A DNA stretch of 64,000 nt, from positions 28,096,001 through 28,160,000 of the forward strand of contig CP068257.2 of NCBI GenBank assembly GCA_009914755.4. The letters run 5' to 3'. Position numbers and translations under genes: made by a program. This document shows positions 20,041-22,393 of the stretch, piece by piece. Positions within the stretch are counted from its first letter, which is position 1. Each line of letters opens with the position of its first letter. Under the pieces are notes generated by a model that worked only from the letters and a program-made list of their open reading frames with translations, was not told the DNA's origin and made no database searches. This DNA comes from the human T2T-CHM13v2.0 reference genome, Homo sapiens.

Positions 20041-20153
20041 TTCCTTCTCTCCCTTCCTTCTCTCCCTCCCTTCCTTCCCTTCCTCCCTCCCTCCCTCCCT
20101 CCCTCCCTCCCTCATTCCTTTATTCCTTCCTTCCTTGCTGTCTTGCTTTCTTT
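20041..20153. repeat. (CCTT/CCCT)n polypyrimidine microsatellite
   Basis: ttccttctctcccttccttctctccctcccttccttcccttcctccctccctccctccctccctccctccctcattcc... Confidence 0.95.
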
Positions 20154-20597
20154 CTGAATATGTACCTACTCTACATTTGCCAACTCCAACTCTGGATGCA
20201 TTCTAAAGGAAAGACAAGCCAACCACAGGGTAGAAACATCACCCTGAGCCAGAGCTCTGGGTCAACAGTGACGACAGGAGGCATCTGGTAGGGAGAAAAG
20301 ATGTAGCAATTTTACCTGGAACTACAAAGATTTGAGACTCAGAATCACGCTGACATTTGGGGACCTAGCAGGGGTGTATAGACAAAATGTGGCACCACAT
20401 TTGTCTTGAACTACTGATTGCTGAGGCAGATTTTCTTGTAAAGGTAGGACGCCAAGCAGTATGGTCCAATCTCTCCTTGATTTTCTGATGAGGGTCAATA
20501 GAGGAGAGAAGGAGAGAGAAGAATTGAGAGAAGCAAAATTTGGAGACTGTTGAAGAGTCAGGCTCTCTTATAGATTCTCAGAAGAAAAAAGAAAACC

Positions 20598-20681
20598 TGT
20601 GATACTGATATATCAAATAAGAGAGGTTTGATATATTATTAGATATCAAATTGATGTATCTAATAAGATAGGTTTGATATT
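20598..20681. repeat. AT-rich palindromic low-complexity repeat (left flank of the LTR7 insertion)
   Basis: gatatatcaaataagagaggtttgatatattattagatatcaaattgatgtatctaataagataggtttgatat; atcaaat.aagata and ggtttgatat units recur, including in inverted orientation. Confidence 0.7.
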
Positions 20682-21078
20682 TTCACTCTCGTCCGTGTGA
20701 AGAGACCACCAAACAGGCTTTGTGTGAGCAATAAAGCTTTTTAATCACCTGGGTGCAGGCGGACTGAGTCCGAAAAGAGTCAGCGAAGGGAGATAGGGGT
20801 GGGGCCGTTTTATAAGATTTGGGTGGATAGTGGAAAATTACAGTCAAAGGGGGTTGTTCGCTGGCAGGCAGGGACAGGGGTCACAAGGTGCTCAGTCGGG
20901 GACCTTTTGAGCCAGGATGAGCCAGGAGAAGGAATTTCACAAGGTAATGTCATCAGCTAAGGCATGGACCAGCCATTTTCACTTCTTTTGTGATTCTTCA
21001 GTTACTTCAGGCCATCTGGATGTATACGTGCAGGTCACAGGGGATATGATGGCTTAGCTTGGGCTCAGAGGCCTGACA
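20682..21078 (-). mobile_element. Solo LTR7 (HERV-H long terminal repeat)
   Basis: Reverse complement matches the LTR7 consensus end to end. Start: tttcactctcgtccgtgtgaagagaccaccaaacaggctttgtgtgagcaataaag (rc of LTR7 3' end ..CAAAGCCTGTTTGGTGGTCTCTTCACACGGACG..). End: ..gatatgatggcttagcttgggctcagaggcctgaca (rc of LTR7 5' end TGTCAGGCCTCTGAGCCCAAGCTAAGCCATCATATC). Candidate 5-bp TSD gatat/gatac. Confidence 0.8.
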
Positions 21079-21170
21079 GATACAACATTTGATTATATTT
21101 GATATATCTTATTTGATATACCTAATAAGATATATCAAATAAGATAGATAGGTTTTAAATAAGATTAGTT
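21079..21170. repeat. AT-rich palindromic low-complexity repeat (right flank of the LTR7 insertion)
   Basis: gatacaacatttgattatatttgatatatcttatttgatatacctaataagatatatcaaataagatagataggtttta; inverted copies of the units seen in the left flank. Confidence 0.7.
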
Positions 21171-22393
21171 GGCAAGAAAGCTGCCTCACACCACCCCTAC
21201 TGCAGCCTTTTGCACATTTCTGTCCTTAGCTTACCTCCCTTTCATCTGGTAATAATGGTGGCACTGGACCTTTTTTCCAGATCACCTTCCTTTAGCTGCC
21301 TCTTGGTCCACTTTTCCCCTTCAAGGTTGCTCTTGCTGCTAAAGGTTTACCATGACTTTATTTCTGTGGATGGGAATGGGGAGTGAGCGTGTGTTATTAT
21401 GGAGCCATCTCTTAATGATGTAGTCCTGGGCCCAGGGAGAACTTGCAATTGCATGCTCCATAAGTCCTTCTTTATTTCTTCCATGCACACAGCAGCTTTG
21501 CTAATGCCTCTCAGCCTGACACACCCAGTCAATCTGTTACACTCAAGATGGTTTTTACTACAATGGGAGGGAATCTGCATATGTCCTGGTGGGTACTGGT
21601 ACATCTGATTTTTACATAGGTTGCAAGTAATCTGACCAGTTTGTTAATGACCTTCTAATGTACATTTGCATTATGATTGTTCCCATTATTTGCCATTCCA
21701 ATTCCACTTACGGGGGTTTTCTTTCGAGACGCTAGCTGTCTTTCCTACCTGCCTGTAACACATTCACAAAGTTAATGAGGACATGTGCGCATGGCAGTGG
21801 GTGTCACCATTTTAATTGCTTCCAAATATGGTTAGCATATGTTGTCTCAGTATAGAAAATCTGAATTAAAATGCTAAGCCTTTTTAGTACTGGCAAGAGA
21901 TAATAGTCTCTAGAGCTAGGGCTCTTCTGAGAAATTCATGACGTCTCCAAAGTTTCCCTCTGGTTCAAGAAGATGCTGGTTTTTCTGAAACAGCTCTTAT
22001 ATACTTTTGATCTCCTTGGACTTTTAACGCTTCTGTAGATAGTGATTTGGTAACTTCCATGAGATAAGGTCAGAGCTAGAATGGGCTGGGACTTGCTTTC
22101 ATTAGTATGTGTCTAAGCACTTGGTCCAGGAATGATATCCTTAACAGTAGCTTTCCTGTTCAGTCACTTCCCCCTAATTTAACTATAAGAACAAGGAACT
22201 TAATTTTGTTGAGGTCTTACAAAAAATTGTATTCTTTGATTATATGCTGTGAGCATGAAGGATGTGTGAAAATACTCAAAAGAGAACGTCTGCTTCTTCT
22301 TTGCAAGAAGCTTACTATTTCTTGGATGAGACCAAATGGCCAGAAAAAGGAGCTTAACAATATTGTACAAAGTAAATTCAAAGAAAAAATATG

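What the first reader, a model, noticed from the sequence alone, without database searches (positions are those of the whole stretch)
20598..21170. Solo HERV-H LTR7 embedded in an AT-rich palindromic low-complexity array
A ~397-bp LTR7 (minus strand) is cleanly delimited: tttcactctcgtccgtgtgaagagacc... at one end, ...cagaggcctgaca at the other, and a candidate 5-bp TSD gatat/gatac. Both flanks consist of the same short AT-rich units (atatcaaataagata, ggtttgatat) in direct and inverted orientation. The LTR therefore sits in the middle of a hairpin-capable palindrome. LTR7 family members are established stem-cell/early-embryo promoters and enhancers, so a solo copy in a presumably gene-poor region is a candidate cryptic regulatory or lncRNA start site.
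Basis: partly seen in the sequence, partly recalled or inferred. Interest (0 to 1): 0.5.

Follow-up and report, generated by a model that had tools for sequence, protein, structure and literature searches.

The report
Old, ordinary solo HERV-H LTR7
This is one of roughly 1,500 leftover single end-repeats (solo LTRs) of the ancient retrovirus HERV-H in a primate genome; it landed in a short AT-rich repeat, it lacks the sequence block that makes some relatives stem-cell promoters, and it is ordinary.

Summary
A 398-bp HERV-H LTR lies on the minus strand at window 20681-21078 (TGTCAGG...GTGAAA). Similarity to 38 independent full-length LTR7 copies stops exactly at those two bases. It is flanked by GATAT/GATAC, and two other solo LTR7s fetched here have perfect 5-bp duplications, so 5 bp is the family's target-site length. 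No second LTR and no HERV-H internal sequence occur in the 64 kb, so it is solo.

Against 11 published HERV-H LTR consensus sequences it is LTR7 in the strict sense, not 7B, 7C or 7Y. It belongs to the old grade: 7o 95.3%, 7d1 94.3%, 7bc 93.8%. It lacks block 2b, which carries the SOX2/3 motif shown experimentally to be required for promoter activity in pluripotent cells. The 7o and 7d subfamilies are reported as silent or weak there. The stem-cell promoter reading is therefore unlikely, though I could not test it directly.

The flanks are a roughly 165-bp, 80% AT, degenerate minisatellite of quasi-palindromic units. Its hairpins are local. The best palindrome (21096-21141) lies wholly in the right flank, and no predicted stem spans the insertion point. 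Verdict: a correctly recognised, already-annotatable repeat of low interest.

The parts
20681..21078 (-). Solo HERV-H LTR of 398 bp. It is LTR7 in the strict sense, of the old 7o/7bc/7d1 grade. It reads TGTCAGGCC...GAGAGTGAAA on the minus strand.
   Evidence: Sequence. It is the only copy in the window. Edges are defined by 38 independent full-length LTR7 alignments. Scored against 11 subfamily consensus sequences.
20676..20680 (.). Target-site duplication copy GATAT. It abuts the U5 end of the LTR.
   Evidence: A 5-bp duplication length is supported by perfect duplications at two other solo LTR7s: L022 GATAC/GATAC and L017 CACAC/CACAC. Chance of a match of at least 4/5 in this array is about 6%.
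21079..21083 (.). Target-site duplication copy GATAC. It abuts the U3 end of the LTR.
20808..20814 (-). TATAAAA (TATA box) of the LTR, at LTR positions 265-271.
   Evidence: Motif located. It is conserved in all the consensus sequences. Calling it a TATA box rests on general knowledge of HERV-H LTRs.
20796..20806 (-). GGCCCCACCCC, a GC/GT box just downstream of the TATA box, at LTR positions 273-283.
   Evidence: and conserved in the consensus alignment. Sp1-type binding is recalled from the literature and was not tested here.
20740..20745 (-). ATTAAA polyadenylation signal variant, at LTR positions 334-339. This is the block type of 7o and 7d1, as opposed to the AATAAA of 7bc, 7d2 and 7up1.
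20908..20927 (.). Tandem 10-bp duplication: TGAGCCAGGA x2 on the plus strand, TCCTGGCTCA x2 in LTR orientation. It is shared with the 7d, 7u1 and 7up consensus sequences and absent from 7o and 7bc.
20601..20680 (.). Left part of the AT-rich degenerate minisatellite. Tandem Repeats Finder reports period 23, 3.3 copies and 62% matches over 20606-20680. It forms two local hairpins.
21079..21167 (.). Right part of the same AT-rich array, with period about 14.
21096..21141 (.). 46-bp AT-rich palindrome with 23-nt arms, 91% complementary and no spacer. It is the strongest hairpin-forming or cruciform-capable element here, and it lies wholly in the right flank.
   Evidence: (I1). As single-stranded DNA the right flank folds at -13 kcal/mol, z = -4.7. 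Rfam gives only sub-threshold miRNA-hairpin look-alikes there: 25 bits against a gathering score of 100.

Best explanation
An inert molecular fossil. A HERV-H provirus carrying an early-type LTR7 integrated, in a catarrhine primate ancestor, into a pre-existing short AT-rich degenerate minisatellite of about 165 bp and 80% AT. Integration duplicated 5 bp of target (GATAY). Later, homologous recombination between the two LTRs removed the internal region and one LTR, leaving a solo LTR. One duplication copy has since acquired a T/C difference.

The LTR keeps basal promoter and polyadenylation motifs (TATAAAA, GC box, ATTAAA). It belongs to the old 7o/7bc/7d grade, which lacks the SOX2/3-bearing block 2b, so it is most likely silent in pluripotent cells and has no dedicated function. 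The flanking array is ordinary AT-rich low-complexity DNA. Its units are themselves quasi-palindromic (TTTGATATATCAAA), which is why they match in both orientations.

What is shown: identity, edges, solo status, subfamily grade, absence of block 2b, and the local nature of the hairpins. What is inferred: the order of events (integration, then LTR-LTR recombination), the age, and the transcriptional silence.
For: - Edges and identity: 38 full-length LTR7 copies from other loci align to the region, nearly all from 20681 to 21078 and none extending more than one base beyond.
- Subfamily: identity to published consensus sequences is 7o 95.3%, 7d1 94.3% and 7bc 93.8% with few gaps. It is 7up1 90.6% with 55 gap positions, 7y 90.6% with 96, 7c 88.8% with 83 and 7b 87.0% with 110.
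- Control: the same scoring assigns nine fetched copies to a best-scoring subfamily at 94.7-99.2% identity, most at 97% or more. The lower 94-95% here fits an older copy.
- Solo status: there is no other LTR7 hit in 64 kb. Loci that carry kilobases of HERV-H internal sequence hit the window elsewhere only at Alu positions.
- Target-site duplication: 5 bp is confirmed empirically at L022 and L017, and the window has 4/5.
- Age: non-CpG divergence from the nearest consensus sequences is 4.1-6.2%. This fits the published 25-40 My wave (7o, 7bc, 7c) or the 9-20 My wave (7d, 7u1) (PMC8912925).
- Activity: block 2b is absent and there is a single AAAAGAAG. The 8-bp motif is required for iPSC promoter activity, the 7d consensus is weak, 7o is untranscribed in the early embryo, and only 7up is robustly transcribed (PMC8912925).
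- Commonness: 711 LTR7 + 524 7b + 223 7c + 77 7y solo LTRs are annotated in hg38 (PMC8912925).
- Flanks: 15-mer units in both orientations occur only in the two flanks. The empty site folds as three local hairpins.
Against: - No orthologous empty or filled site from another primate could be obtained, so the age rests on divergence and subfamily alone.
- The copy is a mosaic. It has a 7o-like backbone and polyA block, but also the 10-bp duplication and the adjacent G>A change typical of 7d/7u1/7up. It cannot be placed in one subfamily with confidence.
- Basal promoter motifs are intact, and 13% of 7o and 32% of 7d1 loci bind NANOG in ESCs (PMC8912925). Activity at this particular copy, or in another tissue, is not excluded.
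- The duplication has one mismatch, and in this array a match of at least 4/5 has about a 6% chance.
Confidence: 0.85

Rival explanations
1. One reading: this solo LTR7 is a cryptic promoter, enhancer or lncRNA start site active in pluripotent or early embryonic cells.
For: TATA box, GC box and polyA signal are intact. Some loci of the old subfamilies bind NANOG: 13% of 7o and 32% of 7d1. 7bc elements are expressed across the blastocyst, and 7bc gives the best raw alignment score (PMC8912925). [quoted passage not shown]
Against: Block 2b with its 8-bp SOX2/3-overlapping motif is absent, and that motif is required for iPSC promoter activity (PMC8912925). 7o is untranscribed and the 7d consensus is weak. 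Its polyA block is of the 7o/7d1 type, not the 7bc type. Co-opted roles have been found for LTR-flanked HERVH, not solo LTRs. A solo LTR has no downstream HERVH leader or splice donor, so its own ATTAAA signal would end any transcript shortly after the inferred start just downstream of the TATA box (inference).
Confidence: 0.07
2. The two AT-rich flanks are the halves of an old non-autonomous DNA transposon (a MITE with terminal inverted repeats), or of a functional long palindrome or cruciform that the LTR split in two.
For: Left and right flanks are complementary over 27 nt at 78% and over 13 nt at 100% (I2, I8). The inverted alignment scores far above shuffles.
Against: The flanks match equally well in direct orientation (score 46 against 44), because the unit is itself palindromic. 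Tandem Repeats Finder sees tandem periods of 23 and 14. The best palindrome is internal to the right flank, and no stem crosses the insertion point in the reconstructed empty site. Nothing similar to the array occurs elsewhere in the window. With the LTR in place the arms are more than 400 bp apart, too far for cruciform extrusion by general knowledge.
Confidence: 0.07
3. The element belongs to another HERV-H LTR subfamily (LTR7B, LTR7C or LTR7Y), with that subfamily's stage-specific activity, rather than to LTR7 in the strict sense.
For: The first ~130 and last ~230 bases are shared by almost all subfamilies. The old 7bc subfamily connects to 7b and 7c in the published network.
Against: Global alignment scores are 7c 428, 7y 413 and 7b 282, against 586-624 for 7o, 7d1 and 7bc. 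The three rivals need 83-110 gap positions and reach only 87-91% identity. Their diagnostic insert blocks are absent.
Confidence: 0.04

Closest known systems
HERV-H LTR7 in the strict sense, old subfamilies 7o / 7bc / 7d1 (Carter et al. 2022, eLife 11:e76257)
   Same: Full-length collinear alignment at 94-95% identity, with the same termini (TGTCAGG...GTGAAA). Block 2b is absent, as in 7o, 7bc and 7d. The ATTAAA polyA block matches 7o and 7d1, and CCACTA(Y)C matches 7o and 7bc.
   Different: No single subfamily fits. It carries the 10-bp TCCTGGCTCA duplication and the adjacent G>A change of the 7d/7u1/7up lineage on a 7o-like backbone. It lacks the 7d-specific insert blocks (CCGGTT and CATTCC). 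It has 17-25 private or diagnostic substitutions and a 2-bp deletion (CT) upstream of CTCTTTTCGG.
LTR7up1/up2, the hESC-active HERVH promoters
   Same: Same LTR family and termini. It shares the TATA box, GC box and U5, and the 10-bp duplication.
   Different: It lacks the roughly 50-bp block 2b, which includes the second AAAAGAAG (SOX2/3 motif). Identity is 90.6-91.9% with 55 gap positions. That block is what confers pluripotent-cell promoter activity (PMC8912925).
FRA16B-type AT-rich minisatellite (33-bp unit ATATATTATATATTATATCTAATAATATATC/ATA)
   Same: About 80% AT, TATC-punctuated and hairpin-forming. A 17/17-nt stretch, GATATATTATTAGATAT (20632-20648), equals the reverse complement of part of the FRA16B unit. 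The alignment scores 69, against 42 +/- 6 (maximum 60) for 200 shuffles.
   Different: It is only about 165 bp, with degenerate 14- and 23-bp periods rather than a 33-bp unit, and it is not expanded. There is no evidence of fragility. The resemblance is one of composition and motif, not demonstrated common origin.
Palindromic AT-rich repeats (PATRRs) and cruciform-forming palindromes
   Same: An AT-rich, spacer-less, near-perfect palindrome at 21096-21141.
   Different: It is 46 bp, against the several hundred bp of translocation-prone PATRRs (size from general knowledge). It is not centred on the LTR.

Membership tests
HERV-H LTR (LTR7 group) | Collinear full-length similarity to the LTR7-group consensus, with the family termini TGTCAGG... 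and ...TGAAA/TGACA. | tested here: met
   94-95% identity to the 7o, 7d1 and 7bc consensus sequences over the whole length. Edges coincide with those of 38 other full-length copies.
HERV-H LTR (LTR7 group) | 5-bp target-site duplication directly abutting both ends. | tested here: met
   GATAT/GATAC, a 4/5 match. The 5-bp length was verified on L022 (GATAC/GATAC) and L017 (CACAC/CACAC). Chance of at least 4/5 in this array is about 6%, so this is supportive but weak on its own.
Solo LTR (as opposed to a provirus LTR) | No primer-binding site, polypurine tract or HERVH internal sequence next to it, no partner LTR within proviral distance, and the same host sequence on both sides. | tested here: met
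   The flanks are the AT-rich array on both sides, not TTTGGTGCC or AGAAGRCAGGAA as in proviral copies. No second LTR occurs in 64 kb, and no internal-region hits.
LTR7up (pluripotent-cell promoter subfamilies 7up1/7up2) | Block 2b carrying the duplicated AAAAGAAG (SOX2/3 motif). | tested here: not met
   Block 2b is absent in the alignment. There is only one AAAAGAAG, at LTR 90-97. The control 7up copies L002, L022 and L007 have two.
LTR7up (pluripotent-cell promoter subfamilies 7up1/7up2) | Transcription and KLF4/NANOG/SOX2 occupancy in hESC. | not testable with these tools
   No expression or chromatin data can be reached, and the locus could not be mapped.
LTR7B / LTR7C / LTR7Y | The subfamily-specific insert blocks, and best alignment to that consensus. 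| tested here: not met
   Scores are 282, 428 and 413, against 586-624 for 7o, 7d1 and 7bc. These three need 83-110 gap positions.
FRA16B/FRA10B-type expanded AT-rich minisatellite | A tandem array of a ~33-42-bp AT-rich unit, in many to thousands of copies. | tested here: not met
   The array is about 165 bp in total, with periods of 14 and 23 and 62-88% matches. Only partial motif similarity to the FRA16B unit was found.
DNA-transposon MITE split by the LTR | Terminal inverted repeats at the outer ends, its own target-site duplication, and other copies in the genome. | tested here: inconclusive
   No inverted repeat at the outer boundaries 20601 and 21167, and no other copy in the window. 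No repeat library (Dfam) was available to exclude an ancient family.

The most novel reading that the evidence does not exclude
The copy may be a relic of a transitional HERV-H lineage between the central 7o subfamily and the 7d/7u1/7up branch. It has a 7o backbone and polyA block, plus the 10-bp duplication and adjacent G>A change, and has neither the 7d inserts nor block 2b. None of the 11 published consensus sequences captures this combination. Separately, HERV-H integration may favour GATAC-like or NNNAC pentamers. GATAC or its complement occurs at the window, L015, L022 and L042, and 8 of 17 distinct 3' flanks end in AC. Either would be a small refinement of HERV-H natural history, not a new kind of element.
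Probability: 0.2. Interest if true: 0.2.

Novelty: already known. Interest (0 to 1): 0.08.

Why it matters
It matters little. Solo HERV-H LTRs number about 1,500 in the human genome and are routinely annotated by RepeatMasker. The useful outcome is a negative one. The label 'LTR7' does not by itself imply stem-cell promoter activity, because that property belongs to the young 7up subfamilies, which carry block 2b. This copy is of the old type without that block. The flanking AT-rich, hairpin-forming array is the kind of sequence that can vary in length between individuals and can trouble replication or sequencing, but at about 165 bp it is unremarkable.

Tried and rejected
1. Mapping or finding the same locus elsewhere. 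An exact 24-mer from the unique right flank found nothing in metagenome contigs. None of the 67 loci fetched with a conserved LTR7 34-mer is this locus, since no alignment extends into the flanks. No orthologous or empty-site evidence was therefore obtained.

2. Viral contigs held no LTR7.

3. I searched the Carter et al. supplementary alignments for this copy's private substitutions, hoping to get its hg38 coordinates and subfamily label. It was not found. The stored files are truncated at about 400,000 characters.

4. Rfam gave nothing at gathering thresholds over the whole window. A permissive scan of 20300-21500 gave only sub-threshold hairpin look-alikes at the right-flank palindrome: mir-944 at 25 bits against a gathering score of 100. 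I rejected these as chance.

5. A literature look-up for the HERV-H target-site duplication length gave no explicit number. I replaced it with the empirical test on other solo LTRs.

6. My own recollection of the 'canonical LTR7' consensus turned out to match the published LTR7b consensus. I discarded it in favour of the published sequences.

7. ORF listing found nothing above 144 aa in 64 kb, so I made no protein searches.

8. The bacterial promoter/terminator scan was not run, as it is irrelevant to a primate sequence.

Full report
**What is in the sequence**

Window 20598-21170 contains a GC-balanced (50%) block embedded in 80% AT sequence. On the minus strand the block reads TGTCAGGCCTCTGAGCCCAAGC...CTCTTCACACGGACGAGAGTGAAA.

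I fetched 67 human-derived contigs that contain a conserved LTR7 34-mer. Two are contaminants in bacterial assemblies and 65 come from mostly human-associated metagenomes. In blastn of window 20300-21500 against them, 38 full-length LTR7 copies align to the region. Nearly all run from region position 382 to 779, which is window 20681-21078, and none extends more than one base beyond. The LTR is therefore 398 bp with exact edges.

**Target-site duplication**

The pentamers that abut the LTR are GATAT (20676-20680) and GATAC (21079-21083).

I could not find the HERV-H duplication length stated in the open literature, so I tested it on the fetched loci. Most metagenome contigs are collapsed assemblies with a polypurine tract on one side and the tRNA-His-type primer-binding site TTTGGTGCC on the other. 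Two genuine solo LTRs have perfect 5-bp duplications with the same LTR edges: L022 GATAC/GATAC and L017 CACAC/CACAC.

The window's 4/5 match fits a 5-bp duplication that has since taken one substitution. GATAT is a frequent word in this array, so a match of at least 4/5 has about a 6% chance here, against 2% in the window at large. The duplication is consistent but is not the main evidence. The main evidence is the exact edges together with the same array on both sides.

**Solo status**

- No other LTR7-like sequence occurs in the 64 kb.
- The fetched loci include kilobases of HERV-H internal sequence. They hit the window, outside the LTR, only at the positions of the roughly 23 Alu copies.
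- No primer-binding site or polypurine tract adjoins the LTR.

It is a solo LTR.

**Which LTR7**

Carter et al. 2022 (PMC8912925) give aligned consensus sequences for 7b, 7c, 7y and eight subfamilies of LTR7 in the strict sense. Global alignment gave the following:

| Consensus | Score | Identity | Gap positions |
|---|---|---|---|
| 7bc | 624 | 93.8% | 13 |
| 7d1 | 601 | 94.3% | 17 |
| 7o | 586 | 95.3% | 35 |
| 7d2 | 578 | 92.1% | 18 |
| 7up2 | 540 | 91.9% | 55 |
| 7u1 | 538 | 93.3% | 58 |
| 7up1 | 520 | 90.6% | 55 |
| 7u2 | 514 | 91.8% | 46 |
| 7c | 428 | 88.8% | 83 |
| 7y | 413 | 90.6% | 96 |
| 7b | 282 | 87.0% | 110 |

Of the 35 gap positions against 7o, 23 come from a single gap in that consensus.

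As a control, the same scoring assigned nine fetched copies to a best-scoring subfamily at 94.7-99.2% identity, most at 97% or more. The method therefore discriminates, and the lower identity here reflects an older, more decayed copy.

Column by column, the copy has:
- a 7o-type backbone: no 7d inserts, no block 2b, CCACTAYC, and the ATTAAAAAGCTTTATTGC polyA block;
- the 10-bp TCCTGGCTCA duplication and the adjacent G>A change typical of 7d, 7u1 and 7up.

This mosaic fits the paper's network, in which 7o is central and gives rise to the 7d and 7u1/7up lineages. I cannot assign one subfamily with confidence.

**Age**

Non-CpG divergence from the three nearest consensus sequences is 4.1-6.2%. 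This fits the published older wave of 25-40 My (7o, 7bc, 7c) or the intermediate wave of 9-20 My (7d, 7u1). No orthologous site could be retrieved, so the age is an inference.

**Function**

The copy retains TATAAAA (20808-20814), a GC box (20796-20806) and an ATTAAA polyA signal (20740-20745), all on the minus strand. It has only one AAAAGAAG and lacks block 2b.

Carter et al. report the following:
- only 7up is robustly transcribed in ESC and iPSC;
- deleting the 8-bp motif in block 2b, which overlaps a SOX2/3 site, essentially abolishes 7up1 promoter activity in iPSCs;
- the 7d consensus is only weakly active;
- 7o shows no significant transcription at any early developmental stage;
- NANOG binds 13% of 7o loci, 8.7% of 7bc loci and 32% of 7d1 loci.

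A 2025 review notes that co-opted roles have been found for LTR-flanked HERVH rather than solo LTRs, and that enhancer roles for solo LTRs remain unvalidated (PMC12228294).

The stem-cell promoter/lncRNA reading is therefore unlikely for this copy. I put it at about 7%. It cannot be tested directly here.

**The flanks**

- The 15-mer ATATCAAATAAGATA occurs six times at up to 2 mismatches. All six are in the two flanks, on both strands, against 0.43 expected.
- GGTTTGATAT occurs only in the left flank.
- Tandem Repeats Finder sees degenerate periods of 23 on the left and 14 on the right.
- Left and right flanks align about equally well directly (46) and inverted (44), both far above shuffles. 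This is because the unit is itself quasi-palindromic.
- Each flank folds on its own, with z about -4.2 and -4.7.
- The reconstructed pre-insertion site folds into three local hairpins, none crossing the insertion point.
- The best palindrome (21096-21141, 23-nt arms, 91% complementary, no spacer) lies wholly to the right.

The LTR sits inside an array of palindromic units, not at the centre of a palindrome. With the LTR present, the cross-flank arms are more than 400 bp apart.

The array shares a 17-nt identity and a modestly significant alignment with the FRA16B 33-bp AT-rich minisatellite unit: score 69, against 42 +/- 6 (maximum 60) for shuffles. It is short and unexpanded. I treat this as a resemblance in kind, not as membership.

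**Context**

The window has about 23 Alu copies, no ORF above 144 aa and no Rfam family at gathering thresholds. This is typical primate non-coding DNA. Whether it is 'gene-poor' could not be tested.

**Verdict**

The identification as a solo LTR7 is right. The palindrome-centred picture and the functional suggestion are not supported. This is an already-known kind of element, and almost certainly an already-annotated copy. Interest is low.

Noticed in passing
L001 (JAHZSU010000025.1, Ornithinimicrobium laminariae) 1-363; L002 (BMRF01000220.1, Actinomadura cremea) 1-692: Two short contigs in public bacterial genome assemblies are human HERV-H sequence. L002 is a 7up1-type 5' LTR followed by the primer-binding site TTTGGTGCC. 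L001 is an LTR7 3' end plus human flank. This is human DNA contamination in those assemblies.
   Followed up: partly
L003-L067 (metagenome contigs), e.g. L035 1218-1620, L010 578-1030: Most human-derived metagenome contigs carrying LTR7 show polypurine tract (AGAAGRCAGGAA), then LTR, then primer-binding site (TTTGGTGCC). A single LTR is joined to both ends of the internal region. This is most likely assembly collapse of the 5' and 3' LTRs rather than real structures.
   Followed up: no
window 21079-21083; L015, L022/L051 3' flanks; L042 5' flank: The pentamer GATAC, or its complement GTATC, abuts HERV-H LTRs at the window and at three other loci. Eight of 17 distinct 3' flank pentamers end in AC. 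This may reflect a weak integration target preference, but the sample is small and no statistics were done.
   Followed up: partly
window 20041-20136: A (TTCC)n/(CTCC)n polypyrimidine microsatellite of about 95 bp lies about 550 bp from the LTR.
   Followed up: no
This marks the window as primate, with roughly average Alu density.
   Followed up: partly
window 20632-20648: GATATATTATTAGATAT is identical to the reverse complement of 17 nt of the FRA16B fragile-site minisatellite unit. This is likely convergence or a shared type of AT-rich minisatellite.
   Followed up: partly
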